DNA from: an uncultured Clostridia bacterium
GTDB taxonomy: Bacteria > Bacillota > Clostridia > Christensenellales > UBA1242
Length of the DNA stretch: 24,000 bases
Assembly (NCBI GenBank): GCA_934772045.1
Contig: CAKVMH010000001.1
Span: forward strand, 283,646 to 307,645
Direction: 5' to 3'
Both the position numbers and the translations under genes were made by a program. Below the pieces are notes generated by a model. That model saw only the letters and a program-made list of their open reading frames with translations. It searched no databases and was not told the DNA's origin. Position 1 is the first letter of the stretch. Every line of letters starts with the position of its first letter. Shown here piece after piece: positions 1-19,863 of this stretch.

Positions 1-173
1 TCATTAAGTGCATCGGCTGGAGATTCTGTAGGTGTAGCGGTTAATAATAATTTAATTTCATGTTCAAAACGCCCAATAACTGCTAGCACAAACACAAGTG
101 GCACAATTGTTAAAGTATTAAACAAAAATGATATTGTTAGTTTATTGCCCACTTTAAGCCAATCTCGCACCAT
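1..173 (-). CDS. Partial CDS (5' end only, continues past window start): N-terminal membrane-anchor segment of an unidentified protein
   Basis: Minus-strand frame is open from ATG (173-171) to the window edge: MVRDWLKVGNKLTISFLFNTLTIVPLVFVLAVIGRFEHEIKLLLTATPTESPADALN. This is a basic N-terminus followed by a ~23-aa hydrophobic helix. No clear SD or promoter. The + strand frame 1 is also open (1-228), so strand choice is uncertain. I favour minus because the + frame product has no Glu and is S/T/A-rich like an antisense shadow. Confidence 0.35.
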   Translation of the reverse strand, partial: MVRDWLKVGNKLTISFLFNTLTIVPLVFVLAVIGRFEHEIKLLLTATPTESPADALN

Positions 174-315
174 AACCGCATCAGGCGCACCAAGTGCTAT
201 GCTTACAATAGTTTTGATTGCTAATTAAATACGGACTTACCTGTTTCGCTATATGATAGTTTTTGAAGATTAAAAAAATATATATTTTAATCCGTTTAAA
301 ACAGTTTATTGTAAC

Positions 316-346
316 ACAAAAAAATCCACATTGAAAAATGTGGATT
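316..346 (-). terminator. Intrinsic terminator downstream of the GT2 gene
   Basis: Perfect 10-bp stem AATCCACATT (323-332) / AATGTGGATT (337-346) with a GAAA loop. On the minus strand it is followed directly by a U-run (A-run 318-322 on +). Confidence 0.75.
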
Positions 347-382
347 CTTGCTTTTTCTTAATTAAAAGCATCAGTTTTTAAT

Positions 383-1750: not shown

Positions 1751-1811
1751 ATATAACCTCTCTAGCGGAAACAATAATACCACACTTTCAATAAAAAGAA
1801 AAGGGGTTTTT

Positions 1812-2897: not shown

Positions 2898-2943
2898 TCG
2901 TCCACCCTAAAGCACATTTTATTTGCCAATTCTGTGTGCATAC

Positions 2944-2972
2944 ATTTTAGCACTTAATAAAAAAAAATTCAA
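2944..2972 (-). promoter_or_regulatory. SigA-type promoter for the glycosyltransferase operon
   Basis: On minus strand: TTGAAT (2972-2967), 17-nt spacer, TAAAAT (2949-2944), about 45 nt upstream of the ATG at 2897. Bracketed by a perfect 10-bp inverted repeat (2922-2931 / 2984-2993). Confidence 0.55.
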
Positions 2973-3101
2973 CCAAAATACACAATTGGCAAAAATTGTA
3001 AATTTAAATTGAACTTTTAATGTATTGTTTACAAAAGTTTTGAATTGTAAGGTGGGTTAATTTAGGGTATCACCACAAACAAAATCTAGCTAATATCTTT
3101 T

Positions 3102-3782
3102 TTAATTTTTATAATGTATTTTAACTTGGTCACCTTCAATGTGCTCTGCTAAGATGACGTTTTTAAGGTCGTGCTTGCTTTTAATTTCACAGCAATTAAA
3201 AAGCCAGGCAGTGTCCTTATTTAAAACAGCCAGCGCACTTTTGTTGACATTTCCGTCAATGATAAGGTAAATGGCAGGCTCGGTTTTAGGTTCGAACTCA
3301 GTTTTAATGTCTTCCAAAATTGTTTGGCGGTAACGATCTTTTGGTAACACACTTATATCGCCGTTGTTTTCTAAATAAACATACGAAATTTCTTCCAAAT
3401 CAAAATAACTTTTTGCACGGCACAAACCTAAAAGGTCGTTTACATCTAATTTGGACTTTTTTAAATTAGCATAATTAATTTTGCCGTTTGTAACCAATTC
3501 AATTTGTTTACCTTTAAGCAATCTTTTAAAAGGAATTTTTCGCTCTAAAAAATTGATAAGCAAGGTTAAAAACAAAAAAACAACCATGCCAATAATGTAG
3601 TGATACCACGGATTTTCATAGTCAGTGCACCATTGTCCTGCGATGTTGCCAATGGTTATGCCCACAACATAATCCACAACCGTTAACTGCGCAACTTGTT
3701 TTTTGCCAAGCATTTTTGCGATGATAAATATTGAAATGTATGAAAATACAGAATAAACCACAATGGTTAACCAATTAGGCAT
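3102..3782 (-). CDS. DUF421 (YetF/YdfS-like) membrane protein
   Basis: 226 aa. Three N-terminal TM helices with QLTVVDYVVGITIGNIAG, then a soluble C-terminal domain, typical of the Bacillota YetF family. Strong SD AGGAGG upstream. Confidence 0.75.
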   Translation of the reverse strand: MPNWLTIVVYSVFSYISIFIIAKMLGKKQVAQLTVVDYVVGITIGNIAGQWCTDYENPWYHYIIGMVVFLFLTLLINFLERKIPFKRLLKGKQIELVTNGKINYANLKKSKLDVNDLLGLCRAKSYFDLEEISYVYLENNGDISVLPKDRYRQTILEDIKTEFEPKTEPAIYLIIDGNVNKSALAVLNKDTAWLFNCCEIKSKHDLKNVILAEHIEGDQVKIHYKN

Positions 3783-3970
3783 GCTTACCTCCTAAGCATA
3801 GTGTGGTTAAAACGTGGAAAATAATTTATTGTTAGCCGAACATTTTTTAATTTAAAAGGAGTTTACACGATGCATTAATTTAAATATGTAATGTAAGTTT
3901 AAAAATTGTGGATTAGCAAGAGATACCAACATGTCTGTTAAAAAGGTTTTTAATTTGCAATTTTTATATT

Positions 3971-3995
3971 AAAAAAGCAACTTAATAAGTTGCTT
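3971..3995 (-). terminator. Intrinsic terminator after the kinase gene
   Basis: Stem AAGCAACTT (3975-3983) / AAGTTGCTT (3987-3995), 3-nt loop. A-run 3971-3976 on + gives the U-run on the minus strand. Confidence 0.65.
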
Positions 3996-4043
3996 AAAAT
4001 TAATTTCAGTTATTTTAAAGAAAGAGATTTAATGTTATACTTC

Positions 4044-4595
4044 TTAGTTTTTTGGTTTTGTCTTTTTGTGTTTAGCATTTTGTTTAACGCTATAAAGTTG
4101 ACCATTATAATATGTTTCAATAACATCAAAACCTTCATGCAGGGTAGGCAGGTTATTTTTAATGCGTTTAAAATATAGGTCGATTGTTGTTTCTTTATCT
4201 TTGATTTTATGTGAAGCTGAATTGTTTGTTTCACGTTTAAGCATTTGGTTTAAGCAGGTTAATTTGTCCACCAACAAAAGTTTACAAACAATTTCTGCAC
4301 TATGGCGTTTTGCTATCATCAAAAATTTGTGTCTGCGTCTAGTTGGCATATTGGTATAATCAATCACGCAGTTAATGTTGGCGGATAAATTCCTTTCAAG
4401 TTCAGCATACATTTTATTTAAAATTTTATTTCTAATTTTGTGGTCGTATGGCTTTGTGGAAATTTTTTTAAGTGGCAAGGTTTTGTAAATTTCATCGGCA
4501 GAAATAACAATAGTGTTTTTTTCAAGTTTAAGTTTGTTTGCGCATGTTGTTTTGCCGGCACCAACACAACCTATAAGGATAAATACTTTACTCAT
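4044..4595 (-). CDS. Small P-loop kinase (AAA_33 / polynucleotide-kinase-like ATP-binding protein)
   Basis: Walker A GCVGAGKTT six residues after MSKVFILIG, and SADE shortly after, typical of this kinase fold; 183 aa. Start set to ATG 4595 because the longer ORF start (4634) lies upstream of the promoter at 4603-4630. Confidence 0.7.
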   Translation of the reverse strand: MSKVFILIGCVGAGKTTCANKLKLEKNTIVISADEIYKTLPLKKISTKPYDHKIRNKILNKMYAELERNLSANINCVIDYTNMPTRRRHKFLMIAKRHSAEIVCKLLLVDKLTCLNQMLKRETNNSASHKIKDKETTIDLYFKRIKNNLPTLHEGFDVIETYYNGQLYSVKQNAKHKKTKPKN

Positions 4596-4602
4596 ACTTA
4601 AT

Positions 4603-4630
4603 ATTATATGAAAAAAGCACAAAATGTCAA
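4603..4630 (-). promoter_or_regulatory. Consensus SigA promoter, leaderless configuration, for the kinase gene
   Basis: Minus strand: TTGACA (4630-4625), 16-nt spacer, TATAAT (4608-4603), then 7 nt (ATTAAGT) to ATG 4595. No SD. Confidence 0.6.
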
Positions 4631-4650
4631 CCATGACAGATTGTGCTTTT
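4607..4650 (-). terminator. Intrinsic terminator of the upstream hypothetical gene, overlapping the kinase promoter
   Basis: 10-bp stem AAAAGCACAA (4613-4622) / TTGTGCTTTT (4641-4650), 18-nt loop. On the minus strand the stem is followed by a T-run. The loop contains the TTGACA -35 box. Confidence 0.55.
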
Positions 4651-4731
4651 ATATAATTGTCGTAACCAAGCCCCTAAATTGCCAACTAAGGGTGTAAAAA
4701 GTGAAAATTATTAAAACTTCTAAACTAAAAA

Positions 4732-5076
4732 TTAAATAACATCGGTTTGATTTTCAATAATATTTTTTTTGTCCGTTTCAACAAGCATTTGCAAAAGTTC
4801 AGGTGTAAATTTTGTCAAAACTTCCGCCCATGAGATGTTGTGCAATTGACCTTTTTCATCACAAACAACAAAAACAATGTTTTGGTCGCTATAATAAATG
4901 GTTGAAAATTCTGGCAATGCTTCATAAATTGCATTTTCGTTAAATTTTTCGTTGCGTAATTTGCGAATGATATTCCTTCCGTAAGGGGTCAAACGCATAA
5001 GTGCCAATTTACTTCTGTTGGATAATTTAAAATAATCTTGCTTAGGCAGAATGATATTTGAACCTTCAATAGTCAT
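4732..5076 (-). CDS. Hypothetical protein (114 aa), no recognisable motif
   Basis: Part of ORF 4732..5124. Start moved to ATG 5076 (MTIEGSNI...), which has GAGGT 8 nt upstream. The longer start lies inside the promoter at 5096-5124. Confidence 0.6.
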   Translation of the reverse strand: MTIEGSNIILPKQDYFKLSNRSKLALMRLTPYGRNIIRKLRNEKFNENAIYEALPEFSTIYYSDQNIVFVVCDEKGQLHNISWAEVLTKFTPELLQMLVETDKKNIIENQTDVI

Positions 5077-5095
5077 TTTTAACCTCGTTTTCGTG

Positions 5096-5124
5096 AATAT
5101 ACCACGAAAGCGCAAAATTGTCAA
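5096..5124 (-). promoter_or_regulatory. SigA-type promoter for the hypothetical gene
   Basis: Minus strand: TTGACA (5124-5119), 17-nt spacer, TATATT (5101-5096). Confidence 0.6.
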
Positions 5125-5274
5125 TACCCCTATTAAAACGCAACGCTTTAAAAAACGACAGCAAATTGCACAACAGCAAGGTGCAAAACAAAAAATACCA
5201 CCTTTTATCTGTCAATGAAATGGCAAATTAGTTTTTAAATGTGGTATTATAATAAAATTATCAGATTTAAAAGA

Positions 5275-5348
5275 TGGAGCGGGTGATGGGAGTCGAACCC
5301 ACCTTACAGGCTTGGGAAGCCCGCGTACTACCGATGTACTACACCCGC
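5275..5348 (-). tRNA. tRNA-Gly (anticodon CCC), CCA encoded
   Basis: Reverse complement is GCGGGTGTAGTACATCGGTAGTACGCGGGCTTCCCAAGCCTGTAAGGTGGGTTCGACTCCCATCACCCGCTCCA. It folds as a cloverleaf with acceptor GCGGGTG/CACCCGC, anticodon loop TTCCCAA, T-arm GTGGG-TTCGACT-CCCAT and discriminator U. Confidence 0.95.
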
Positions 5349-5440
5349 ACAAAGGTTTACCGACTGCGGATGCACTAACATGCCCGCACAAAAGTTTACT
5401 GACTGCGGATGCACGCCCACCCGCATAATATCTTACCGAC
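5344..5440 (-). repeat. Tandem ~39-nt repeats in the tRNA-Gly 5' leader, each re-using the first bases of the acceptor stem
   Basis: 5344-5375 and 5383-5414 are 32-nt near-identical copies (CCCGCACAAA[G/A]GTTTAC[C/T]GACTGCGGATGCAC). A third partial copy lies at 5416-5440 (CCCACCCGCATAATATCTTACCGAC). Confidence 0.7.
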
Positions 5441-5554
5441 AAAATTGACTTATTTTGCAGTGTTTACATATTAACACACAAAATCGAAATTAGCAAGCAT
5501 AAATGTGCAAGTTAAATGAAAAGCAAAAATTTTTACAAAATATTTAAAAAAACC

Positions 5555-5583
5555 TTGACAATAGAATGTTTTTTAAGTATACT
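5555..5583 (+). promoter_or_regulatory. SigA-type promoter of the tRNA-Met/tRNA-Glu unit
   Basis: TTGACA (5555-5560), 17-nt spacer, TATACT (5578-5583), 11 nt before the tRNA-Met 5' end. Confidence 0.7.
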
Positions 5584-5594
5584 CTCAAGTATCT

Positions 5595-5670
5595 GGCGGT
5601 GTGGCTCAGCGGTTAAAGCAATCGGTTCATACCCGATAGATCGGTAGTTCGATTCTACCCACCGCCACCA
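5595..5670 (+). tRNA. tRNA-Met (anticodon CAU), elongator-like, CCA encoded
   Basis: GGCGGTGTGGCTCAGCGGTTAAAGCAATCGGTTCATACCCGATAGATCGGTAGTTCGATTCTACCCACCGCCACCA. G1-C72 is paired and there is no GGG/CCC anticodon stem, so it is not an initiator. It closely resembles Bacillus elongator Met, though a lysidine-modified Ile2 cannot be strictly excluded. Confidence 0.9.
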
Positions 5671-5956
5671 CACAAAGCAACAGGTTTGTGTCATAGAAGT
5701 GGGTAATTTCCCATAAATGAGGTTTTGAAAAATAAACATAAATCGCGAAGCAACTTGTTTGCAAAACCTTTACATTTAATATTAATTAAATTAGTTTTAA
5801 ATGTACCGATTAATAGGAAACAAAGTAATGAAAAGAAACCACAAGGAAGCGGGTATCCGTTCCGTGGTGTCTTGTCATAAATGTGGGCAATTGCCCATAG
5901 ATGAAGTTTGCGTAAATTTATTTAGCAAACGATAGAGTAGGGCAAATTGCCCACAT

Positions 5957-6895: not shown

Positions 6896-7990
6896 TTAAA
6901 CATTAAATTTAAACACGATTATGTCGCCGTCTTGCACAACATAATCTTTGCCAGCACTTATAATCTTACCTTTTTCACGGCAGAGGTTATAATCGCCCAA
7001 CGTTATCAAGTCGTCGTATTTAACAACGTCTGCACGGATAAACCCACGCTCAAAATCGGTGTGGATTTTTCCTGCTGCTTGTGGGGCAAGTGTGCCACGG
7101 TGGATTGTCCAAGCGCGCACTTCTTTTTCGCCTGCGGTGATGAAACTTATAAGCCCAAGCAAATGATAACTTGCAACAATCAATTTTTCAAGCCCAGAAC
7201 TTTCAATGCCCAGTTCTTGCTTAAACATTTCGCGGTCTTTTTGTGGCATGTTTATCAGTTCTTCTTCTGTCCTTGCGCAAAGCGAAATAACTTCTGCCTG
7301 TTCAGCCAAAGCAATTTGTTTTATTTTTTCAATATTTTCGCGTTGGAAATCGTCCAATTCGTCGCTTGTGTTTGCCACATAAATGATAGGCTTGCTTGTG
7401 ATAAGGAAAAATCCGTCCACAATTTTTTGCTCTTCCGCGTTAAGTTTAAGCATGCGCGCTGGTTTTTGATATTTAAGCAACTCCAAAATCTCATTAAGCA
7501 ATTCAAATTCCTTAATTGTTTGCTGGTCGGCTTGCCCACCGTGAACAATTTTTTTAATGCGGTCAATGCGTTTTGTAACCGCGTCAATATCGCTTAAAAT
7601 AAGTTCCAAATTAATGGTGTCAATATCGCGCACAGGGTCAATGCTTCCGTCCACATGTATAATTTTATCGTTTTTAAACACGCGCACCACATGCACAATT
7701 GCGTCAACTTCGCGGATATGGCTCAAAAACTTATTGCCAAGCCCAGCACCTTCGCTTGCGCCTTTAACCAAACCTGCAATGTCCACAAATTCAATTTGCG
7801 CTGGAATAATTTTATTTGTGTGGTACATTTCAGCCAATTTATTCAACCTTTCGTCCGCCACATCGACAACGCCCACATTTGGCTCGATCGTACAAAAAGG
7901 GTAATTTGCACTTTCTGCACCGGCCTTAGTAATTGCATTAAATAATGTGCTTTTGCCAACATTTGGCAGACCAACAACGCCTAATTTCAT
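6896..7990 (-). CDS. ychF: Ribosome-binding ATPase YchF (Obg-family GTPase/ATPase)
   Basis: MKLGVVGLPNVGKSTLFN (G1), DIAGLVKGAS (G3), a coiled-coil insert and the C-terminal TGS-like end ...DGDIIVFKFNV. Start moved to ATG 7990, which has a GGAGAG SD. The 24-aa N-terminal extension in the ORF track is unlikely. Confidence 0.95.
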   Translation of the reverse strand: MKLGVVGLPNVGKSTLFNAITKAGAESANYPFCTIEPNVGVVDVADERLNKLAEMYHTNKIIPAQIEFVDIAGLVKGASEGAGLGNKFLSHIREVDAIVHVVRVFKNDKIIHVDGSIDPVRDIDTINLELILSDIDAVTKRIDRIKKIVHGGQADQQTIKEFELLNEILELLKYQKPARMLKLNAEEQKIVDGFFLITSKPIIYVANTSDELDDFQRENIEKIKQIALAEQAEVISLCARTEEELINMPQKDREMFKQELGIESSGLEKLIVASYHLLGLISFITAGEKEVRAWTIHRGTLAPQAAGKIHTDFERGFIRADVVKYDDLITLGDYNLCREKGKIISAGKDYVVQDGDIIVFKFNV

Positions 7991-8062
7991 TTTATTTTCT
8001 CTCCAACTCTTAAGTAATATTTGATATTTCCTAATAATACAATAATCTAAGGAAAATTTCAA

Positions 8063-8812
8063 GTGAAAAATATCTTAAAATACACATTAATTGGCTTTAT
8101 CCAAGGCATAACCGAATTTTTGCCGGTTTCAAGCAGTGGGCACATTGTCTTGTTTGGCTCGCTTTTTGAATTGGACAACCTTTTGTTACTAAGTGTGGTT
8201 GCGCACATCGGCACACTGTTTGCGGTTATCTTTTGTTATCGAAAGCAAATTGTGGAACTAATAAAAAATCCATTTAACTCAACAAATTTATGCCTAATAA
8301 TTGCAACTGTTCCAACTGTAGTAATGGTGCTAATTTTCAACAATTTTTTGGAAGCAAATTTTTCAATCCATGTTCTGGTTTGGGGGTTTTTATTGTCGGC
8401 ATTGTTGCTTGCTGTGGCAGACTTCAAAAAGACCAACAACAAACCAATAAACAAACGCAACGCACTTTACATGGGCATTGCACAGGGGCTTGCCTTGTTA
8501 CCGGGAATTTCGCGCAGTGGGGCAACGCTAACATGCGGTTTGTTGGTTGGCGTTGAAAAGCAAAAGGCGTTAGACTTTTCCTTTTTGATGAGTATACCAG
8601 TCATCATTGCAAGTGCGGTTTATGAAAGTTTTAAACTTTTCAGTTGCCAACTTACAATCAATTGGCTGGGCATTATAATTGTCATGATAACTTCATTTGT
8701 TTTCGGCATTTTATCAATAAAAATCATGTTGAAATTAGTCAATAAAAATAAGTTAATTTACTTCAGTTTCTATTTAATACTGCTAAGTTTATTAATTTTG
8801 TTTTTGGTTTAA
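8063..8812 (+). CDS. uppP: Undecaprenyl-diphosphate phosphatase (BacA/UppP)
   Basis: Signature motifs EFLPVSSSGH and PGISRSGATL. Polytopic membrane protein of 249 aa. GTG start with AAGGA 9 nt upstream. Divergent from ychF. Confidence 0.9.
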   Translation: MKNILKYTLIGFIQGITEFLPVSSSGHIVLFGSLFELDNLLLLSVVAHIGTLFAVIFCYRKQIVELIKNPFNSTNLCLIIATVPTVVMVLIFNNFLEANFSIHVLVWGFLLSALLLAVADFKKTNNKPINKRNALYMGIAQGLALLPGISRSGATLTCGLLVGVEKQKALDFSFLMSIPVIIASAVYESFKLFSCQLTINWLGIIIVMITSFVFGILSIKIMLKLVNKNKLIYFSFYLILLSLLILFLV

Positions 8813-8899
8813 AACTGCCGTTTAATGGGTTAAAATAAAGTAAAAAAGCATAAAACTATCGACAAAATTCGACAAAATACGATATTTCTTCGTAAATCA

Positions 8900-8927
8900 T
8901 TGCAGTTGTGGGGCTTTGCCTTAAAAT
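8900..8927 (+). promoter_or_regulatory. Promoter of the XRE gene, leaderless configuration
   Basis: TTGCAG (8900-8905), 16-nt spacer, TAAAAT (8922-8927), then 6 nt to ATG 8934. No SD. A perfect tandem TCGACAAAAT x2 lies at 8859-8878 just upstream. Confidence 0.5.
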
Positions 8928-8933
8928 GATTTT

Positions 8934-9140
8934 ATGAATATAGGTAAAGTTATTAGGGATTTAAGGAAGGAACATAAGATAACGCAATCGCAACTTGCAA
9001 TGGCAATCAATTCAACACAAGACACCATTTCCCTTTGGGAACTTAATAAAAGTTGCCCAGATGCGTTTTATATTGTCAAACTTGCCAAATATTTTAGTGT
9101 CAGTGCGGATTATTTACTTGGCTTGCAAGATGTCATGTAA
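8934..9140 (+). CDS. XRE-family (Cro/cI-type) helix-turn-helix transcriptional regulator, 68 aa
   Basis: IRDLRKEHKITQSQLAMAINSTQDTISLWE is a textbook HTH_3 pattern; the C-terminal end is ...SADYLLGL. Confidence 0.8.
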   Translation: MNIGKVIRDLRKEHKITQSQLAMAINSTQDTISLWELNKSCPDAFYIVKLAKYFSVSADYLLGLQDVM

Positions 9141-9264
9141 ATTGGAGCAGTTAATTTAAACTTAAAATTACTTATTCATTTGCTATGCCATGTTAAATGG
9201 CGTTTTCAGTGTGTTTTTTGCTTGCGCACACTTTTTGTTGATTTTTCTGTCTAACCACAAAATA

Positions 9265-9293
9265 TTGACATTATGTAATGTTTGTGATAATAT
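9265..9293 (+). promoter_or_regulatory. Near-consensus SigA promoter driving the large ncRNA
   Basis: TTGACA (9265-9270), 17-nt spacer, TAATAT (9288-9293). Predicted start is near 9300, 3 nt before the closing helix of the RNA. Confidence 0.7.
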
Positions 9294-9299
9294 AATAAC

Positions 9300-9948
9300 A
9301 TAACGAAGGCGCAGTATTCTAGTCGTCTAGGTTAAGTGAGGATGCTGAAACAAGCATAATTGGCACAACTATGAAGTTTCTGGTGCTGGCTTTGATTGCC
9401 CAAATTGGGGCTGGTGCTGGGAGTTAAGGTTTTTGGGTGGTGTGTAACGGCATACACATTTAAGCCCAACTATCGCGGAGACCCAAGTGGGTAGGTTGAG
9501 TGTTATTAGCTGCTTATCTATCGCTTGGATTGGGAACCTGCATACGGCGAAAGTTGTGTGCAGTGTAGCCTGCTTTGAGTGGTTAAACTGGGATTGAGCG
9601 ACAACTTAAATTTATTGCAAAGTACACGCATACTTTTAGGTTGCTTTTGAAATTTTAACCGCAAAATAAAGCTAAATTTAACTGATGACGTTAAGGAAAA
9701 CTTCTAGGCTGTTCGTATGAGGTGCTTTGGGGATTATAGTGTGGTCTCAGTGGCGATTCGGTGCAAGTTTTGCATAAAGGGAAACCGCTTTGTTGGTAAC
9801 GGCAAAGTGCAAGATTGGGAAATCCAACCGAACCTTATGCCGCAAGGTTTACTCAAGGTATTGCCTTCGTAATTTGGAAACAACACTTTTAAGTGTGTAA
9901 ATAAACATAAAAAGAAAAAAGCAGGTAAGTTTTCACCTGTTTTTTTCG
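9300..9948 (+). ncRNA. Large stand-alone structured non-coding RNA, family unassigned (ROOL/OLE/GOLLD-class candidate or new class)
   Basis: Has its own promoter and terminator, and no + strand ORF of 60 aa or more. An 8-bp long-range helix 9303-9310/9863-9870 closes a ~568-nt domain. At least 10 hand-foldable helices include an 11-bp stem with a GAAA tetraloop (9538-9563). G-U pairs fix the + strand. G+C is 31/60 and 28/60 in 9361-9480 versus 16/60 in the flanking 9141-9200. Confidence 0.7.
9921..9947 (+). terminator. Intrinsic terminator of the ncRNA
   Basis: CAGGT (9922-9926) / ACCTG (9935-9939), plus a G-U closing pair, 8-nt loop, T-run 9940-9947. Confidence 0.6.
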
Positions 9949-10073
9949 TTGTGAACACAACAAACCATATTTTTAAATGGGAACAAAATAAATTGGTTTA
10001 TTATGAGTTTTCTTTTGGCAAAAATAAACCAATTTGCTTCGCTTTTGCTCGCAAATATGGTTTGTTGTTAATC

Positions 10074-10102
10074 ACAAAAAAAAGTGGCTTAAATGCCACT
10101 TT
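10074..10102 (-). terminator. Intrinsic terminator of the 10165-10590 gene
   Basis: AAAGTGGC (10081-10088) / GCCACTTT (10095-10102), 6-nt loop. A-run 10074-10080 gives the U-run on the minus strand. Confidence 0.7.
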
Positions 10103-10164
10103 TAAATTCTTAAACTGGAATAATGTAACCTATTTTATTATGAAAATTGAATTAACTTAACAAA

Positions 10165-10590
10165 TTAGTCCCTTCTTCTGTTAGGAATTGAAAGCACCAA
10201 CAACAATGAAACTACGCCGACGCCAATAGCAACGTATTCACCAACTTTGTTTGAGAATTGAACAGAAACGTCTGCAGACCCGCCCAAGGCCATAGAAAAT
10301 TTAACATTGTACATGTTTGAAATAATCATGTAGTTTTTATCTTCTAAATTGCCAAAATCTTTGGTGTCGTTTAAATAAATTTTATTGCCTTTCAATTTAT
10401 AAAAACCGGTGTTTTCGCCTAATTTGTAACTGCCGTCCCATTTAAATTGCAATTCAACAGTTTCAGTTTTGTCGCCAACTTTGTAATTATATTTATAAGT
10501 ACCAAATGGCAAGATAAACATAGGGTAGCCATAACATAAAACAACAAATGCAATTGCAAGTGTTAAAAATATTTTCCTAAAAAAGTGCAT
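10165..10590 (-). CDS. Hypothetical membrane-anchored protein (N- and C-terminal TM helices, beta-rich middle)
   Basis: 141 aa, strong SD AAGGAGAAGGG. N-terminal hydrophobic segment IFLTLAIAFVVLCYGY and C-terminal VAIGVGVVSLLLVLSIPNRRRD. No recognisable family. Confidence 0.6.
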   Translation of the reverse strand: MHFFRKIFLTLAIAFVVLCYGYPMFILPFGTYKYNYKVGDKTETVELQFKWDGSYKLGENTGFYKLKGNKIYLNDTKDFGNLEDKNYMIISNMYNVKFSMALGGSADVSVQFSNKVGEYVAIGVGVVSLLLVLSIPNRRRD

Positions 10591-10784
10591 AAACCCTTCT
10601 CCTTTATTTTTAGTATAGTGAAAAATTTAACGAAAGTCAACAAACTGTGTCAGTTTTTGTATTTTAATTTCGCATTGTAATTTTGCTTATCGTGCACATT
10701 AAAAAATGCTTGACCAACGGCTAAACTTTATTTAAACTTAAAATATACATATTCATGTAAAATGAAAATTATTCAGGGGGAAGA

Positions 10785-12551
10785 ATGAAAAAACGCGCAG
10801 ACATTGATGAAAAATATAAATGGGATATAGGGTTATTTAAAACACAAAAAGAAATTGAAAATGTGTTCACCACAATGCAATTTTTAACCGATGAAATGCC
10901 AAAATTTTATGGCAAATTTAACGATAAGGATAAGTTTTTTGAATACCTTACCACATATGAAAAACAGGAGCAATTAATACAACAATTTTGTTTTTATTTG
11001 TCCAACACTTATGCGACAGACAACTCAAATGTGGAAATCCTTAAACTTATGCAACGCTATGAAATCATGGCGCAAAAGTTGGGCAAAGCAACCGCCTTTG
11101 TTTCACCACAAATGGCGCGTTTAAGTGAAAAATATTTGCGCGAATTGCTTAGCGATAAGCGTGCAAAAGGTCATGAAAATTTTATTCTTGACATCATTCG
11201 CAACAAGCCACACACATTAGATGAAAAATCGGCAGATTTAATTGCAAAAATTTCAAACAGTTTCAACAACAGTTCATCAGTTTTTGACATTATAACCGAC
11301 AGTGAAATGGAATTTAATTTAGCATTGGACAGCAAAAATAAACCACATAAACTTGACAATGCAACCTATCACACTTTGCTCACAAGCAAGGACAGGGTTT
11401 TAAGAAAAAATGCTTTTAAAAATTTCTTATCACAATATGGAAAGTTGAATAAAACCTTTGCTGAACTTTATGTAAGCGACATGAAATCAGATAACGACAA
11501 TACAAAATTGCATAATTTCAGTTCACTTTTAACCGCGCAACTTTTCGACGAACAAGTGCCAGAAATTGTGTTTGAAAACAACATAAAATATGTTAACAAA
11601 CACATTGATTTAAACAAAAAATACATTCGCGCACTTGCCAAAAATCAATGGCTGAAAGACATTGCTTACTACGACCTTTTTATGGACGAAAAAGTAAATG
11701 GAAAAGTAACAATTGAACAAGCAAAGCAGACAATTTTAAATGCGCTTGCACCACTTGGGCAAGACTATTTGTCACGCGTGAACAAAAAATTGACAGATAA
11801 ATCTATCGATTACATGCCAAACCAAAACAAAACAACAGGGGGATACTGTTCAAATTGCTACGGTGCAAAAACTTTAATTTTGATGAACTGGCAAGACGAT
11901 TTCAACAGTATGTCCACATTAATACACGAAATGGGGCATTGCATTAATGCTGAATATTTCAACGAGTTTCAACCAATGGACGACGCATCAATCAGCATTT
12001 TCAGTGCGGAAATTGCAAGCACAGTAAATGAAATTTTATTAAATCAATACATGCAAAAAACGGCAGACAAAAGGCATAAAAAATATTATTTAAACGAATT
12101 TTTAAATTCGGTTAGAAGCACAATTTTTAGGCAAACTTTGTTTAGCGAGTTTGAATTGTATGCCCACACAAGCATAGAAAATGAAACACCAATCACATAC
12201 AAAGAATTGAATGAAAAATACTTTGAATTGAACAAAAAATATTATGGTGGGGCATGTGCTCTTCCAAAGGAATTGCAATTTGAATGGTCACGCATTCCAC
12301 ACTTTTACCGCCCATATTATGTCTATTCATACTCAACCGGCATGTTAACAGGCATTACCATTGCAGTCAAACTTTTAAACGAGCCTAACTTTGCAAACCA
12401 TTACATTGAATTTTTAAAGAATGGTACACACCGCCCAGCAATTGAAGTGCTAAAAGAAATCGGCATTGATTTAACAACAGCAGAGCCATTTGAATACGCC
12501 TTTAAGTTTATCAAAAATCAATTAGATGAATACATTTCACTTAAAAAGTAA
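10785..12551 (+). CDS. pepF: Oligoendopeptidase F (M3B metallopeptidase)
   Basis: 588 aa. Zinc site TLIHEMGHCINAEYF (HEXXH). The N-terminal KYKWDI and overall length are typical of PepF. SD GGGGGAAG. Confidence 0.9.
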   Translation: MKKRADIDEKYKWDIGLFKTQKEIENVFTTMQFLTDEMPKFYGKFNDKDKFFEYLTTYEKQEQLIQQFCFYLSNTYATDNSNVEILKLMQRYEIMAQKLGKATAFVSPQMARLSEKYLRELLSDKRAKGHENFILDIIRNKPHTLDEKSADLIAKISNSFNNSSSVFDIITDSEMEFNLALDSKNKPHKLDNATYHTLLTSKDRVLRKNAFKNFLSQYGKLNKTFAELYVSDMKSDNDNTKLHNFSSLLTAQLFDEQVPEIVFENNIKYVNKHIDLNKKYIRALAKNQWLKDIAYYDLFMDEKVNGKVTIEQAKQTILNALAPLGQDYLSRVNKKLTDKSIDYMPNQNKTTGGYCSNCYGAKTLILMNWQDDFNSMSTLIHEMGHCINAEYFNEFQPMDDASISIFSAEIASTVNEILLNQYMQKTADKRHKKYYLNEFLNSVRSTIFRQTLFSEFELYAHTSIENETPITYKELNEKYFELNKKYYGGACALPKELQFEWSRIPHFYRPYYVYSYSTGMLTGITIAVKLLNEPNFANHYIEFLKNGTHRPAIEVLKEIGIDLTTAEPFEYAFKFIKNQLDEYISLKK

Positions 12552-12567
12552 AATATTTAAAAAAGAA

Positions 12568-12596
12568 TTGCAAAAACTAAGTTGATTTGTTATAAT
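12568..12596 (+). promoter_or_regulatory. SigA-type promoter for the small tail-anchored protein gene(s)
   Basis: TTGCAA (12568-12573), 17-nt spacer, TATAAT (12591-12596), followed by a GGAG SD and ATG 12609. Confidence 0.65.
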
Positions 12597-12608
12597 TTAG
12601 GAGTGAAC

Positions 12609-12974
12609 ATGCTGGATAAAAAATCATTTTCAGTTTTAAAAGCATTGAATAAGTTGACTGATGGTACCGCATATAAAGTGGCAACCAGTGAAGAAATTAT
12701 TGCATTGCTTAGCCAAAAAAGCCAGTACGATAACGACAGCATAAGGCAAATTATGGATTTTTTGGAAAAACAAGAGTATTTGATTATCAAATTTAGTGAA
12801 GAAAACACATATTGTTATTCACTTCTTCCCAAAGCACGCATTGTGTTGGAACAGGACACGGGCAAACCAAAAGCAAAAAAGAATATAAATTCGTTTTTAC
12901 ATTATGCTTATGTCGCACTGGCTTCATTCGTTGGGTGCTTGCTTGCGTTGGTTGTTTTCTTTTATGTTTTTTAG
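12609..12974 (+). CDS. Tail-anchored small protein: N-terminal winged-helix-like domain plus a single C-terminal TM helix (121 aa)
   Basis: MLDKKSFSVLKALNKLTDGTAYKVATSEEIIALLS...IRQIMDFLEKQEYLIIKF..., then a basic linker and FLHYAYVALASFVGCLLALVVFFYVF at the extreme C-terminus. Start ATG 12609 has a GGAG SD. The TTG start in the ORF track lies inside the -10 box. Confidence 0.65.
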   Translation: MLDKKSFSVLKALNKLTDGTAYKVATSEEIIALLSQKSQYDNDSIRQIMDFLEKQEYLIIKFSEENTYCYSLLPKARIVLEQDTGKPKAKKNINSFLHYAYVALASFVGCLLALVVFFYVF

Positions 12975-13057
12975 TCGTTTTGCAAACATCAAACTCTAAT
13001 TATAAAAATCACAATTTTCAAATAAAATTTAAAAACACAAATTATTAGTCAAAAATT

Positions 13058-13423
13058 ATGTTAACTTTTAAAGAAAAATACGTAATGGAATATGTCTATC
13101 AGAAATGTCAAGGCAAAAAGTCTTGTCTTATTTCTCCGCGCGAAATTATTTCATTTGTTGCGGACAAATATGTCATTTCTACTGACGAACTTGAAAAGAT
13201 TATGACAAATTTAAGTTACGATAACTACATCGAACTTTTTAAAAGTGACAAAAAAGGTAGCCCAGTTTTTTGTGTTTCGCTTAAAATTAAAGGTGAAGGT
13301 TTTCATCGTGAACTTACCAACAACAAGCGCAACTTGTGGTATCAAATTGCCACAAAGGTTGGTTTGGCATTGCTTGTAGGCATAATTGGTTTAATTTTCG
13401 CCATTATAAAAATCCGCTTTTAA
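13058..13423 (+). CDS. Paralog of the preceding gene: winged-helix-like domain plus C-terminal TM helix (121 aa)
   Basis: Same length and architecture as 12609-12974. Aligned motifs include ML..K, (E/R)EII, (Q/K)IM..L....Y(L/I), a beta-hairpin region, a basic linker and the terminal TM VGLALLVGIIGLIFAIIKIRF. No obvious SD. Confidence 0.6.
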   Translation: MLTFKEKYVMEYVYQKCQGKKSCLISPREIISFVADKYVISTDELEKIMTNLSYDNYIELFKSDKKGSPVFCVSLKIKGEGFHRELTNNKRNLWYQIATKVGLALLVGIIGLIFAIIKIRF

Positions 13424-13487
13424 TAAAAGTGCGCGGTCGTATTTAATATTTCAATCCATGAGTGTAAGTACAAGTTTGTATTAATTG

Positions 13488-13961
13488 GTCACTCTGAGTG
13501 TTGGCAATTACACTCTATATGATATGTACACCATGAACGTTAGTGAATATGTCGTACTAAGTGTGTCGCCCTGTTAAGTTTGTCACCCTTTTATGTATGT
13601 CACCCTGAGCGCACGCGAAGGGTCTTGCACGAAGCGCTTTTTACGATCAATATATCAAAAGCAAAACAAGTTTTGCAAGATTCTTCGCTTCGCTAGAATC
13701 TGAAGATTTTTTCGAAATCATTCAGGTTCTTCGCTATGCTAGAATGACAGATAACTGAAAATATACATAAACATAAATAACATTATTTTTTTAAAATCAT
13801 TCAGGTTCTTCGCTACGCTCAGAATGACACGTGTATTCAATCTTATGTCATTCTGTTAAGTATGTACTATGTAAGTATGTCACCCTGAGTGGAACGAAGG
13901 GTCTTGCGCGAAGCGTTTTTTACCATTAATGTTTTAATCAACGCTACGCTCAGAATGACAG
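13488..13961. repeat. Nest of short hairpin repeats (core GTCAYYCTGAG-N-CGAAGRRYC) in both orientations
   Basis: Forward full copies at 13599-13637 and 13879-13915. Forward heads at 13488-13500, 13565-13578, 13582-13592 and 13847-13860. Reverse copies at 13678-13700, 13716-13750, 13795-13830 and 13941-13961. About 80-nt composite units at 13562-13645 and 13843-13925 are direct repeats of each other. Confidence 0.8.
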
Positions 13962-14015
13962 ATGTATTATCACCAGTTTATCTGGTGTTTTTTATTTTAA
14001 AAAGCAAAGAGTGGT

Positions 14016-14121
14016 TTGCATGTTTTTATTGTTATAAGGAAAATTCTGCATACTTATGTTTTTATTATTATAAGAAAAATGCTACATATGCATGTTTTTA
14101 TTTTGACAAGAAAAAAGTTGC
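14016..14121. repeat. Three imperfect tandem 36-bp repeats upstream of the S8 protease gene
   Basis: Core ATGTTTTTATT..TTATAAG.AAAAAT starts at 14020, 14056 and 14092, an exact 36-bp period. The third copy contains TTGACA (14103-14108). Confidence 0.7.
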
Positions 14122-14227
14122 TTTTACAAGTTTATTATGTAATAATAAAAATACTAATTAAATTTTTAGTTATACTAAATGTAATAAGCATTTGTTGGCT
14201 TGCAACAAGTGCAATAGGGGTAAACAT

Positions 14228-17200
14228 ATGAAAAAGAAAAAGTATTTACTTTTTGTTTTGAGCTTGATTTTTTTGTGCTCAGCAATTTTTGTTTTTAATC
14301 CATTTTCTTTCAAAAGCACATCAGCTTCAACTGAAGATGGAAGTCTAAATGATTTTTTGCAGTTTGAACAGCAAATTAAGGATTTAAACAGTGAAGACGA
14401 ACTCATGTTAAACAATAACGAAACACTGTTAAATAATAACGAAAACTTGTTGTCAGTGCTAAGCGAATCCGACGATTCAAATTCGGATTTAGGCGATTCT
14501 TTAATTTTCTCAGACGATGAAAATGAAGAAAGTGAATTTTATCTTAAAAGGCTTATTGTCCAAGGCAATATCACAAACAATTTCGGTGCAACAAAGGACA
14601 TTTGTTACAAAAACCTTCACGTTTTGTGTTACCCAACTGAACAAGCAACCGCATATGCTTATGGGCAATTCAAAAAAGCAAATTACAATGTAATTATTGA
14701 TAAATATGAAACTGCCGATAGTTATGCGGATACTGATTACGACTACACTTCCTACACCGACAGCTGGAGCGCAGAAGCAATTGACGTTGGTGGCTTTAGG
14801 CAATATTTAACCGATAACAATGTGAATAATGAGGTCGTTGTAGCCGTCCTTGACACTGGCATAAACACTTCACATGAAATGTTTAAAGATAGGTTGTTAA
14901 AAGACGAAAACGGGAAAATTGTAGGCTATTCTTATTACAATTCTACATACCAATATAGCTACGATAATCTGTCATTTGATTCAAGCGACACAAGTAAATA
15001 CAGTTTTGAAGATGATGGAGGCCATGGCACACACGTTGCCGGTATAATTTGTAACCTAACACCAGCCAATGTTAAAATTTTGCCAATCAAAATCGGTAAT
15101 TCAGCTGGGAGAGGCACTAGCACTTCGATACTAACGGGATATTTAAAGGTGATAGAGGTCTATTCAAAAAAATATAACATTGTTAGCACAAATTTAAGTT
15201 TCTCTGGTGCAGGGAAAGATTCAGAAAGTGATAAAAATTTATTTAACAAGAAATGTTATGAACCATTATTGGCTTTAAACATTTTACCGATAACGGCAGC
15301 AGGGAATGAAACCAACGAAAACAACATCGAAGGGTTAAAGGCTGTGGTCGTTTCAGCCTTAGAAGAAAATAGTAAGCACTACTCATTAGCTGACTATTCA
15401 AATTATGGCAAAATTGTGGATATTTCAGCCCCAGGCACCCGTATTAATTCGGCATACATTTCAGATACAGATAGTGCGGTAACCGATGTGTATGAATCAC
15501 TTAATGGCACATCAATGGCTTCACCACAAGTTGCAGGCGCAGTGGCATTGTTAAATTTAAACCCAAGCTTTTCAAGCCTTTCCGCTTCCGAGATTGAACA
15601 AACATTGTATGATTTATCTTTAGATCTGGGTAAACCAGGGTACGATACATATTATGGGTATGGCATGCTCAACTTAAAGTATTTTGAAATGCCTAACACC
15701 CAAGCAAATTTGTCATTTTATAAAGATGGTGAGTTAATCTCCGACGAGGAAAATGAAAGCTGTATAAATTTTGAAGATAAAATGACATTGACAATCACAA
15801 GCTCGGACAAAGATTTCCAAATATTTTACACCACCGATAAAACAATACCAACAAAAGCAAAAAGCTTAAATTCTTCAATCCCTACAGCTGATTACATAGG
15901 AAGTTATACTACAGATTTGAAAGTGCCAAATATAATTTATCTTTATGTTATAGGATTAAAGGTGGTTGACAACAAAATTGTTGCCCGCACAAATTTATAC
16001 AATATTTCATTTTTTAACATTAACACCCCAATAGAAGATTGTTTTGAAATAGACAGTGATGGAACTCTGACCAATTATATTGGGAACTACAAAGAGTTAA
16101 CTATACCTGGAACAATTAAAGGTCTAGAGGTAAAAAAACTCGGATATTCGTTATTTAAAGGTTCAAACCTTCAATCTGTCACTTTGCCAGAATCATGTAC
16201 GGGTATTTCAGGATATGTGTTTAAAAATTGTAAAGATTTAAAATATATTTATGCCCCAGGGGTTGTAAAAATCTGGTTTGCTGGTTTTACGAATTGCACA
16301 TCTTTAACCTCAGTTTCCGATCAAGCTCCACCAGCAGGCACAACCACAGGCGCATATCTCCCTAATTATACTATAACTATGGGAGCAATATTTTTTAATT
16401 GTATAAATTTAAAGACTGTTAGTTTATCCAAATTAAAAGCAGTTGAATTGAAAGATTTTTATGGTTGTTCAAGTTTGGAATATGTCAACCTTCCAGCAGT
16501 TACTTCTATTGGCGACTATGGTTTTGCGTTCTGCACAAATTTAACTGGGTTTAACATTGGTGAAACATTGGAAACAATTGGCAATGGTGTTTTTGGTAAA
16601 TGTTCCAATTTAAAAACTTTCACAGTTGACGCAAATAATGCAAATTTTTATACCGATGGGCTTGGTTTATATTCTAAAGATTCACTTGTAAGCTTTGCTT
16701 CTGGCAACAAAAATATTGACTATTCAATTTTGAGTTCAGTCACTATAGGCGGTACAACTTATAACATTACTACGATTCCTGAATACGTATCAAGCGAATC
16801 AAGTTTGACAAGCTTAACTATCCCTGAGTCAATCAATTACATAGGGAAATTTGCCTTCTCTCGCATTGGCACCCTATATTACAATGCTATTAATTGTGTA
16901 TCGACCGGATATATGAGTAAAGATGCCGCTGGTGTACCTACAGTAGGTGCAGTTATTGATAATATTGGAACAATTGTTATAGGGGAGAATGTTCAGCAGG
17001 TTCCTGAAAGGCTATTCCAATGGAGTATCTTTTCTAATGTTATCATCAATTCGTATTCGACAATTTTTGGGGAATATTGTTTTCGTGGTGAAGATAAACT
17101 AAAAAATAAATTAGTGTTTAATTTTGATGAACAAATTGATTTGGATTACTTAAATATGTGTGCGGATACGGCTTTAATGATGATTGGTGGCATTAACTAT

Positions 17201-19615: not shown

Positions 19616-19629
19616 TGTGATAACATTAA

Positions 19630-19657
19630 AAGGTAACTTTAATAGGTTGCCTTTTTT
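19630..19657 (+). terminator. Intrinsic terminator of the S8 protease gene
   Basis: AAGGTAAC (19630-19637) / GTTGCCTT (19646-19653) with one G-U pair, 8-nt loop, then TTTT. Confidence 0.7.
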
Positions 19658-19828
19658 GTCGTTATTGTAAAATATGTTGCAATATTGCTTCTAAATTTCT
19701 ATGTGTCTTCAATTTAATGCAGTTCAAATGCTTGGGCTATTAGTATATATTACTAAGCAAAATGAAAGCAAATTAAGTGCTCTATACAATATGAAAATAT
19801 TTAAACAAAAATCAAATTTTTAAAACAC

Positions 19829-19857: not shown

Positions 19858-19863
19858 AAAACT

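What the first reader, a model, noticed from the sequence alone, without database searches (positions are those of the whole stretch)
9265..9948. Stand-alone ~570-650-nt ornate structured RNA of unassigned family
Between the XRE gene and the convergent gene at 10165-10590 lies a self-contained transcription unit with no + strand ORF of 60 aa or more. It has a near-consensus promoter (TTGACA 9265-9270, 17 nt, TAATAT 9288-9293) and a hairpin plus U-run terminator (9922-9926/9935-9939, T-run 9940-9947). The predicted 5' end (~9300) immediately enters an 8-bp long-range helix, ACGAAGGC 9303-9310 / GCCTTCGT 9863-9870, that closes a ~568-nt domain. Inside it I can hand-fold many helices: 9342-9346/9353-9357; 9433-9438/9464-9469 stacked on 9439-9446/9453-9460; 9483-9490/9521-9528 with inner 9492-9496/9516-9520; an 11-bp stem 9538-9548/9553-9563 capped by a GAAA tetraloop; a long-range 9565-9572/9705-9712; 9619-9624/9631-9636; 9762-9766/9770-9774; 9788-9792/9803-9807; and 9831-9836/9844-9849. 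Several helices use G-U pairs that would be A-C mismatches on the opposite strand, which fixes the + strand. G+C is 31/60 and 28/60 in 9361-9480 versus 16/60 in 9141-9200. The motif GGTGCT occurs three times (9382, 9413, 9721). The large ornate bacterial RNAs (ROOL ~580 nt, OLE ~610 nt, GOLLD ~800 nt) share this size, a closing helix, GNRA capping, stand-alone expression and a setting in a Bacillota genome near tRNA genes and a phage-type XRE gene. I cannot match it to any of them from memory, so it is either a member of one of these poorly understood classes or a new class.
Basis: partly seen in the sequence, partly recalled or inferred. Interest (0 to 1): 0.85.

Follow-up and report, generated by a model that had tools for sequence, protein, structure and literature searches.

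The report
OLE RNA gene, separated from oapA
This is a normal-looking gene for OLE RNA, a known large membrane-associated bacterial RNA, in a small-genome gut bacterium; what is unusual is that it lacks one protein-docking hairpin and no longer sits beside its partner gene oapA.

Summary
The locus is not a new RNA class. Rfam assigns window 9290-9883 (+) to OLE RNA (RF01071) over the full model: 341 bits against a threshold of 50, E = 6e-97.

Eight of its 12 internal helices match or fit the family structure. Four are chance complementarity.

Across 112 OLE sequences the consensus structure covaries strongly, and so does the closing helix P1, which Rfam does not annotate.

The closest relatives are Christensenellales of family UBA1242 (Ca. 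Onthoplasma), gut bacteria with genomes under 1 Mb. Three features stand out:
- The whole clade lacks the P13 hairpin, the main OapB docking site.
- The palindrome in the dimer kissing loop is GUAC instead of GGCC.
- In the window lineage an inversion has removed oapA from its usual place just downstream of ole. In my sample 100 of 102 other loci have oapA there.

An intact OapA gene lies next to tyrS, very probably in the same genome. OLE is more conserved than the flanking genes, so it looks functional.

Verdict: a new member of a known kind with modest variant features. No transcript or binding data exist for this organism. Interest is low to moderate.

The parts
9265..9270 (+). -35 hexamer TTGACA of the ole promoter
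   Evidence: Consensus scan. Invariant in all 7 clade members although the upstream sequence has diverged.
9285..9293 (+). Extended -10, TGaTAATAT, 17 nt after the -35. The transcription start is inferred near 9300.
   Evidence: TGnTAATAT is conserved in all 7 clade members. The start site is inferred, not measured.
9290..9883 (+). OLE RNA (Rfam RF01071), full-length match
   Evidence: 341 bits against a gathering score of 50, E = 6.2e-97, model positions 1-616 of 616, not truncated. 131 of 147 consensus pairs are canonical in the window.
9303..9870 (+). OLE core closed by helix P1 (9303-9310 pairs with 9863-9870)
   Evidence: Across 112 OLE RNAs P1 is 90% paired, and 7 of 8 pairs change on both sides (helix 1).
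9311..9322 (+). Conserved 5' segment GCAGUAUUCUAG, 5' strand of a long-range helix with 9704-9712
   Evidence: 99.2% of cells paired, 6 compensatory cells, against 23-45% when the partner is slid.
9341..9358 (+). Hairpin that I take to be P4a (numbering inferred). The loop is UGAAACAA instead of the family's CCUAAAAAUC.
   Evidence: This hairpin holds most of the window's mismatches to family-conserved columns, and all 7 clade members share them.
9377..9423 (+). 20-bp G-U-rich hairpin with a GCCCA loop.
   Evidence: 20 of 20 pairs canonical. helix 3: 95% paired, 17 pairs change on both sides.
9428..9474 (+). Hairpin with an internal loop and the conserved AAYGGCAU apical loop
   Evidence: helices 4-6: 77-98% paired.
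9538..9563 (+).
   Evidence: all 11 reader pairs match Rfam. helices 10-11: 89-95% paired, with covariation.
9572..9672 (+). Long composite arm (P9 series, numbering inferred) ending in the apical loop L9.3
9622..9625 (+). Self-complementary GUAC in the apical loop. This is the position of the GGCC dimer kissing loop in other OLE RNAs.
   Evidence: GGCC in 92 of 112, GUAC in all 7 clade members, and AGCU, GAUC or GCGC in others. The kissing loop and its palindrome covariation are reported in PMC12286853.
9704..9712 (+). CUAGGCUGU, 3' strand of the long-range helix with 9311-9322
9721..9862 (+). 3' domain: nested helices 9721-31/9852-62, 9740-44/9840-44, 9757-62/9827-32, 9766-73/9809-16 and 9787-95/9800-08 (GUAA loop)
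   Evidence: every one of these pairs is canonical. helices 22-27.
9763..9765 (+). Junction where the P13 hairpin (the OapB docking site) is missing. About 3 nt stand in place of about 21.
   Evidence: 2 residues against 21 model positions; a 21-nt spacer against 39-41 nt in 114 of 126 pattern matches; 17 nt against a median of 36, shorter than all 105 non-clade OLEs.
9914..9947 (+). Intrinsic terminator. The hairpin is flanked by an A-tract and a U-tract, so it could act in both directions.
   Evidence: -16.2 kcal/mol, z = -7.0. One search scores it on the - strand. Related species carry different terminator hairpins at the same place.

Best explanation
This is the ole gene of an uncultured human-gut Clostridia bacterium related to Ca. 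Onthoplasma (GTDB Christensenellales, family UBA1242, genomes under 1 Mb).

Inferred transcript: it starts at a sigma-70 promoter with an extended -10, near 9300, and ends at the hairpin plus U-run at 9914-9947. That gives a primary transcript of about 645 nt with a 568-nt core closed by P1.

Shown by sequence and covariation: the core adopts the OLE fold.

Inferred by homology with Halalkalibacterium halodurans and Clostridium acetobutylicum: the RNA dimerises, in part through the self-complementary apical loop (GUAC here). It binds the membrane protein OapA and forms a membrane-anchored ribonucleoprotein that helps the cell cope with stresses such as alcohols, cold, excess Mg2+ and poor carbon sources.

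Two features are specific to this lineage:
- The P13 hairpin that docks OapB is deleted in the whole clade. The particle is probably a reduced OLE-OapA core.
- An inversion of the uvrB-to-142-aa block has separated ole from oapA. OapA (P0121, 182 aa, DVIGD motif) is encoded beside tyrS with its own promoter-like -10 sequence.

In the nearest relatives ole and oapA each already have their own terminator and promoter. Unlinking therefore need not have disturbed expression.
For: Identity:
- Rfam full-length OLE hit, 341 bits, E = 6e-97.
- 131 of 147 consensus pairs are canonical in the window.
- On 112 OLE RNAs the structure is 80.2% paired against 39-44% when slid. The covariation score is 0.409 against 0.10-0.13, and 0 of 500 shuffles reach it.
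- P1 and the 5'/middle long-range helix both covary.

Expression signals:
- The promoter is invariant in 7 clade members.
- The terminator hairpin folds at -16.2 kcal/mol.
- The strand is fixed by G-U pairs: -181.9 against -126.1 kcal/mol.

Still under selection:
- Window versus strain L002: 2 differences in 571 nt of OLE against 70 in 4317 nt of flanking genes (Fisher p = 0.015).
- The window matches 83.4% of family-conserved columns. Clade members that still have an adjacent oapA match 82.5-84.8%.

Partner protein:
- Relatives L005, L129, L137, L042 and L049 carry a 182-209-aa CNNM-like DxxxD protein directly after ole.
- P0121 is 73% identical to these and lies beside tyrS with no OLE within 6 kb.
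- P0121 and four window proteins share the same longest contig, 771,805 bp, and have similar contig counts, 29 against 33-52.
- P0121 and window-type contigs co-occur in samples ERZ28615273 and ERZ28614815.

Rearrangement: blastn shows the inversion.

Dimer loop: GUAC is present in all 7 clade members against GGCC in 92 of 112, which fits the kissing-loop covariation in PMC12286853.

Biology of OLE and OapA: PMC11332333, PMC7936274 and PMC12286853.
Against: - There are no transcript data for this organism. The start site, the 3' end and any processing are inferred.
- oapA is not adjacent, unlike 100 of 102 other loci sampled.
- The same-genome assignment of P0121 rests on identical longest-contig length and sample co-occurrence. 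I could not read that contig.
- P13 is missing. The presumed P4a loop differs from the family consensus.
- The window matches only 83% of family-conserved columns against 98% for typical members.
- 16 of 147 consensus pairs are non-canonical, mostly in two hairpin arms, 9482-9529 and the apical part of the 9572-9672 arm.
- The presence of OapB and OapC was not tested.
- The within-lineage conservation test rests on one strain pair (p = 0.015).
Confidence: 0.9

Rival explanations
1. The gene is a decaying relic. After the rearrangement removed oapA from the locus, ole lost its function and is drifting. This would resemble the rare defective OLE genes reported in organisms without OapA.
For: oapA is absent from about 44 kb around ole. 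The window matches fewer family-conserved positions than typical OLE RNAs, 83% against 98%. PMC11332333 mentions rare defective ole genes in OapA-less organisms.
Against: The lower match is clade-wide. It is identical in relatives that keep oapA adjacent. OLE is about 4-5 times more conserved than flanking genes between two strains of the unlinked lineage. The promoter is intact. An intact OapA gene is very probably in the same genome. The window still scores 341 bits.
Confidence: 0.06
2. The region is a new class of large structured RNA unrelated to known families.
For: None after testing.
Against: There is a full-length Rfam OLE match at E = 6e-97. nhmmer finds homology to 120 OLE loci from named Bacillota.
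Confidence: 0.01
3. The region belongs to a mobile element or prophage, given the XRE regulator and nearby tRNAs, or it is a long leader or cis-regulator of a neighbouring gene rather than an independent RNA gene.
For: The 68-aa XRE/HTH_3 protein lies directly upstream. Its best NCBIfam match is a phage RstR-type repressor, but below the cutoff. tRNA genes lie 3.3 kb away.
Against: ychF-uppP-XRE-ole is syntenic in four related species inside housekeeping DNA, and no integrase or phage genes were seen among the called genes and Pfam hits listed. More distant clade members, L042 and L049, have ole without XRE. A conserved promoter and a terminator bracket the RNA. The next gene is convergent.
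Confidence: 0.02

Closest known systems
OLE RNA, full-length type (Rfam RF01071; Halalkalibacterium halodurans, Clostridium acetobutylicum)
   Same: The helix order and nearly all universally conserved nucleotides are the same. So are the P1 closure, the size of about 570-590 nt, the GNRA-capped helices, a palindromic apical kissing loop and an OapA partner with a DxxxD motif. The host is an anaerobic member of Bacillota.
   Different: There is no P13 hairpin, so the P12.2/P13/P14/P15 four-way junction becomes a three-way junction and the main OapB site is gone. The presumed P4a loop reads UGAAACAA rather than CCUAAAAAUC. The kissing-loop palindrome is GUAC, not GGCC. ole has its own promoter and terminator and is not next to oapA. 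The host is a gut symbiont with a genome probably under 1 Mb, not an extremophile.
OLE 'variant 1' (PMC11332333; mostly order TANB77, also other clades)
   Same: The OapB-binding end of P13 is missing, and the host is an uncultured gut bacterium with a reduced genome.
   Different: Variant 1 is described as having shortened P7, P8 and P9. With my inferred numbering these arms measure 48, 26 and 101 nt here, within the range of full-length OLEs in my sample (medians 44, 31 and 99). The host clade appears to be Christensenellales UBA1242, not TANB77.
OLE 'variant 2' (PMC11332333; order RF39)
   Same: Both are trimmed OLE RNAs in gut bacteria with reduced genomes.
   Different: Variant 2 lacks P7 and P8 entirely. 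Both are present here.
ROOL and GOLLD RNAs
   Same: They are large ornate bacterial RNAs that form homo-oligomers.
   Different: There is no sequence or structure match: neither family reached its Rfam gathering score anywhere in the window. ROOL and GOLLD are linked to phages and form nanocages. OLE is chromosomal, dimeric and bound to the membrane through OapA.

Membership tests
OLE RNA (RF01071) | Covariance-model score at or above Rfam's gathering threshold over the full model | tested here: met
   341 bits against 50, E = 6.2e-97, model 1-616 of 616, not truncated.
OLE RNA (RF01071) | Family secondary structure present and supported by covariation | tested here: met
   131 of 147 consensus pairs are canonical in the window. 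On 112 OLEs the structure is 80.2% paired against 39-44% when slid, and the covariation score is 0.409 against 0.10-0.13.
OLE RNA (RF01071) | Blocks of universally conserved nucleotides, such as GCAGUAUUCUAGUC, GCCCA, AAYGGCAU, GUAGCCUG, UAAAGGGAAACCG and GGGAAAUCC | tested here: met
   About 110 alignment columns are invariant across all 112 sequences, the window included. The window matches 83.4% of columns that are at least 90% conserved in non-clade OLEs. The misses cluster in the 9341-9361 hairpin and at P13.
OLE RNA (RF01071) | P13 hairpin with a GNRA loop and a single-nucleotide bulge (the high-affinity OapB site) | tested here: not met
   There are 2 residues where the model has 21. 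The spacer is 21 nt against 39-41 nt. It is shorter than in all 105 non-clade OLEs. PMC11332333 documents this as a tolerated variation within OLE, so it does not exclude membership.
OLE RNA (RF01071) | Self-complementary tetranucleotide in the L9.3 apical loop (dimer kissing loop) | tested here: met
   GUAC lies at 9622-9625 in an apical loop. All 7 clade members have it.
OLE RNA (RF01071) | oapA immediately downstream of ole (typical, not strictly defining) | tested here: not met
   No OapA homologue is found in the window or in about 44 kb around it. 100 of 102 other sampled loci have it, at a median gap of 31 nt.
OLE RNA (RF01071) | OapA (CNNM-like membrane protein with a DxxxD motif) encoded in the same genome | tested here: met
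   P0121 is 182 aa, carries DVIGD and gives a weak PF01595 hit. It shares the longest-contig length of 771,805 bp with four window proteins and two samples with window-type contigs. This is an indirect link, not a read of the contig.
OLE RNA (RF01071) | Host in Bacillota, typically an anaerobe or extremophile | tested here: met
   The nearest OLEs are in Ca. Onthoplasma sp. and an uncultured 'Christensenellaceae' MAG. Onthoplasma is placed in GTDB Christensenellales family UBA1242. The window's own taxon is inferred from these relatives.
OLE RNA (RF01071) | OapB and OapC encoded in the genome | not tested
   I had no genome-wide access and no query sequences. The literature says both are absent from some OLE-bearing clades with reduced genomes.
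OLE RNA (RF01071) | Membrane localisation, 1:2 RNA:OapA complex and stress-tolerance phenotypes | not testable with these tools
   These need experiments. They are known only for H. halodurans.
OLE variant 1 (PMC11332333) | Shortened P7, P8 and P9 | tested here: inconclusive
   The arms I number P7, P8 and P9 measure 48, 26 and 101 nt, against medians of 44, 31 and 99 in 105 other OLEs. The helix numbering is inferred from text because figures are not available. My comparison set was also selected with a 3' pattern.
OLE variant 1 (PMC11332333) | Loss of the OapB-binding nucleotides at the end of P13 | tested here: met
ROOL / GOLLD / raiA / HEARO | Covariance-model match | tested here: not met
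   The gathering-threshold scan of the whole window found only OLE and three tRNAs.

The most novel reading that the evidence does not exclude
This clade may carry an undescribed minimal form of the OLE particle. All the 5'-domain arms are kept at normal length, but the P13/OapB module is cleanly deleted. The presumed OapA-binding and dimer-bridge loop (P4a) and the kissing-loop palindrome (GUAC) are remodelled. ole and oapA are independent transcription units. That independence would have allowed the window lineage to separate them on the chromosome without loss of function. If true, OLE plus OapA alone is the essential core, and it is kept even in genomes under 1 Mb.
Probability: 0.35. Interest if true: 0.4.

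Novelty: new member of a known kind. Interest (0 to 1): 0.3.

Why it matters
OLE is one of the largest conserved bacterial RNAs whose biochemical function is still unknown. This locus adds no new class. It does offer a natural reduced version in a gut bacterium with a genome probably under 1 Mb:
- It has no P13/OapB module.
- Its dimer loops are altered but still self-complementary.
- ole is physically unlinked from oapA yet still under purifying selection.

This supports the view that the RNA plus OapA is the indispensable core. The GUAC loop adds an independent compensatory variant that favours the proposed dimer kissing loop. The case also shows that the near-universal ole-oapA adjacency is not required for retention. 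For annotation, it warns that absence of a neighbouring oapA does not mark an ole gene as defective.

Tried and rejected
1. A remnant of oapA after OLE. The A-rich stretch 9906-9924 aligned with the start of oapA in L042. A multiple alignment shows it is just A-rich similarity. In strain L002 it is the start of an unrelated 82-aa ORF. tblastn finds no OapA trace.

2. oapA carried to the far end of the inversion, after uvrB. No OapA trace was found in the 10 kb beyond uvrB (L007, L008).

3. A DNA link between the tyrS-oapA locus and the window. There is no shared flanking sequence. The link was made instead through longest-contig length and shared samples.

4. Classification as variant 1 by arm length. 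This is not supported, because the arms are of ordinary length.

5. It loses to the alternative partner 9311-22.

6. The short ORF 9951-10160 as a gene. It has no family hit. Its ATG in L002 is AAG in the window. I treat it as probably spurious.

7. The hairpin after XRE (9208-9232) as a strong terminator. Its fold is no better than shuffles (z = -0.03), so I make no claim.

8. I did not build my own covariance model, because OLE exceeds the tool's 400-column limit. I used nhmmer, MAFFT and pair counting instead.

Full report
**What is there**

A gathering-threshold Rfam scan of the whole window gives one strong hit besides three tRNAs. It is OLE RNA (RF01071) at 9290-9883 on the + strand: 341 bits against a threshold of 50, E = 6.2e-97, covering model positions 1-616 of 616. 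No other family reached its gathering score.

**Checking the observation**

- The promoter is as described. TTGACA lies at 9265-9270, a 17-nt spacer follows, and TAATAT lies at 9288-9293 preceded by TG, which makes an extended -10.
- The terminator hairpin extends through flanking A and U tracts to 9914-9926/9935-9947. It folds at -16.2 kcal/mol with z = -7.0. The T-run is 9940-9946.
- The longest + strand ORF in the region is 51 aa.
- The G+C counts and the three GGTGCT sites are exact.
- All 13 hand-folded helices are fully complementary.

I mapped the Rfam consensus structure onto the window. Of 147 pairs, 131 are canonical. Three conflict with it: 9619-24/9631-36, 9762-66/9770-74 and 9831-36/9844-49.

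Its three GGTGCT copies are strands of those two stems.

The + strand folds at -181.9 kcal/mol (z = -2.8) and the - strand at -126.1 kcal/mol. This confirms the strand call from G-U pairs.

**Covariation**

I aligned 112 distinct full-length OLE RNAs, giving alignment A1.

Its covariation score is 0.409 against 0.10-0.13, and none of 500 shuffles reaches it.
- The closing helix 9303-10/9863-70 is not in Rfam's structure line, but it is real. It is 90% paired, and 7 of 8 pairs change on both sides.
One position is a C-A mismatch in 84 of 112 sequences.
- The same 3' strand pairs better with the conserved 5' segment, 9311-15 plus 9319-22. That pairing is 99.2% paired with six compensatory cells.
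- The three conflicting helices are not supported.

**Who carries it**

Exact-protein look-ups place the window on human-gut metagenome contigs (Hadza and MERR22 assemblies). The window has 34.8% G+C.

The nearest OLE RNAs outside the lineage fall in two groups:
- Metagenome relatives L005, L129 and L137, at about 85% identity.
- Two genome records, Ca. Onthoplasma sp. (L049) and an uncultured 'Christensenellaceae' MAG (L042), at about 80% identity.

Onthoplasma belongs to GTDB Christensenellales family UBA1242. Nearly all of its genomes are under 1 Mb, and they keep sporulation genes. The window's taxon is inferred from these relatives.

**Clade-level peculiarities of the RNA**

1. The P13 hairpin is absent. 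In H. halodurans this hairpin carries the GNRA loop and the bulge bound by OapB (PMC7936274). Here there are 2 residues against 21 model positions. The spacer is 21 nt against 39-41 nt in 114 of 126 pattern matches. It is shorter than in all 105 non-clade OLEs.

2. The hairpin 9341-9358, which I take to be P4a, has the loop UGAAACAA instead of the near-invariant CCUAAAAAUC. This accounts for most of the window's mismatches at family-conserved columns.

3. The apical loop of the long arm carries GUAC (9622-9625) in all seven clade members. Elsewhere 92 of 112 OLEs have GGCC, and a few have AGCU, GAUC or GCGC. Kretsch et al. reported that this loop forms a symmetric intermolecular kissing loop and switches between palindromes (PMC12286853). 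GUAC is a further palindrome consistent with that.

The other arms are of ordinary length. The RNA therefore matches the published 'variant 1' only in the loss of the OapB site (PMC11332333). My helix numbering is inferred from text, because figures are not available.

**The partner gene**

In L042 and L049 a 185-aa membrane protein with a DVIGD motif starts about 45 nt after OLE. In L005, L129 and L137 the homologue (182-209 aa, weak CNNM hit) follows OLE after OLE's own terminator. A promoter-like sequence for it is visible in L005, L129 and L137.

In my sample, 100 of 102 other OLE loci with enough downstream sequence have this protein as the next gene, at a median gap of 31 nt. The exceptions are L002, a strain of the window lineage, and an Ammoniphilus MAG.

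The window has no such gene in about 44 kb. blastn against L129 and L137 shows why. The block from uvrB to the 142-aa gene is inverted in the window lineage. Only about 65 nt of the old ole-oapA spacer remain, at 9938-10002.

**OapA is not lost**

A homologue cluster (P0010 and P0121, 73% identical to the L005 protein) lies beside tyrS, with a -10-like sequence (TGCTATAAT) upstream and no OLE within 6 kb.

- P0121 and four window proteins share exactly the same longest-contig length, 771,805 bp.
- Their contig counts are similar, 29 against 33-52.
- P0121 occurs in two of the same samples as window-type contigs, ERZ28615273 and ERZ28614815.

I conclude, indirectly but with good confidence, that ole and oapA lie on the same near-complete chromosome but are unlinked.

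**Is the unlinked ole still functional?**

- The promoter TTGACA-17-TGnTAATAT is invariant in all seven clade members.
- The window matches family-conserved columns as well as clade members that keep oapA adjacent: 83.4% against 82.5-84.8%.
- Between the window and strain L002, OLE has 2 differences in 571 nt. Flanking genes have 70 in 4317 nt (Fisher p = 0.015).

This argues against decay. It rests on one strain pair and no transcript data.

**Mechanism, by homology**

The RNA folds, dimerises, binds OapA dimers in the membrane and forms a stress-responsive particle (PMC11332333, PMC12286853). Here the particle probably lacks the OapB module. Expression, processing, binding and phenotype are all inferred, and the presence of OapB and OapC is untested.

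**Verdict**

This is a confidently assigned member of a known family with modest variant features.

Noticed in passing
window 9940-10083: Nested perfect inverted repeats (9957-9972/10053-10068 and 9990-10002/10023-10035) lie between the OLE terminator and the terminator of the 141-aa gene. Each arm resembles a single hairpin element found after the OLE terminator in L129 (5741-5806). The structure sits at the left junction of the inversion and may mark how the rearrangement happened.
   Followed up: partly
window 1-5713 compared with 6897-9867: The first 5.7 kb is 98% identical to contig L005, while the adjacent ychF-uppP-XRE-ole segment is only 78-85% identical. This mosaic suggests recent recombination or transfer between related species.
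   Followed up: no
window 10162-21870: The block from the 141-aa gene through pepF and two 121-aa paralogues to uvrB is inverted relative to L129 and L137. It also carries an extra 1807-aa S8-peptidase/LRR surface protein (14192-19615) that those relatives lack. A 7307-aa DUF285 giant protein starts near 22461.
   Followed up: partly
window 9951-10160: This short + strand ORF is 69 aa from GTG. In strain L002 it is 82 aa from an ATG that is AAG in the window. It has no Pfam hit, it would contain the OLE terminator hairpin, and it is probably not a gene.
   Followed up: partly
L013 (Ammoniphilus sp. MAG), OLE at 4542-5180 on the - strand: This is the only other OLE locus in my sample without an OapA gene downstream. 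None was found by tblastn anywhere in the 8-kb locus, which includes about 4.5 kb downstream of OLE. It may be a second, independent case of ole-oapA unlinking.
   Followed up: partly
L037, L067, L114: OLE RNAs occur in genome records labelled Muribaculaceae, Deltaproteobacteria and Pseudomonas sp. ISL-84. These are probably mis-binned or contaminant Bacillota contigs, as PMC11332333 suspected for its 24 non-Bacillota hits.
   Followed up: no
window 9311-9322 with 9704-9712: A long-range helix joins the most conserved 5' block (GCAGU..CUAG) to CUAGRCUGU. It is 99.2% paired in 112 OLE RNAs with rare compensatory changes, yet it is not annotated in the Rfam structure line. The same is true of P1.
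   Followed up: yes
L004 11634-12830 (beyond the window's left end): A collagen-repeat protein of BclA type (exosporium-like) lies near the locus. This fits the report that UBA1242 genomes keep sporulation genes and that OLE correlates with sporulation genes.
   Followed up: no
sample MERR22-1_SAMEA4766268 (L001 and L138): The window lineage (ole without an adjacent oapA) and a sister species with the ancestral ole-oapA layout were both assembled from the same biosample (S001 and S002 assemblies). The two lineages therefore coexist in that host.
   Followed up: no
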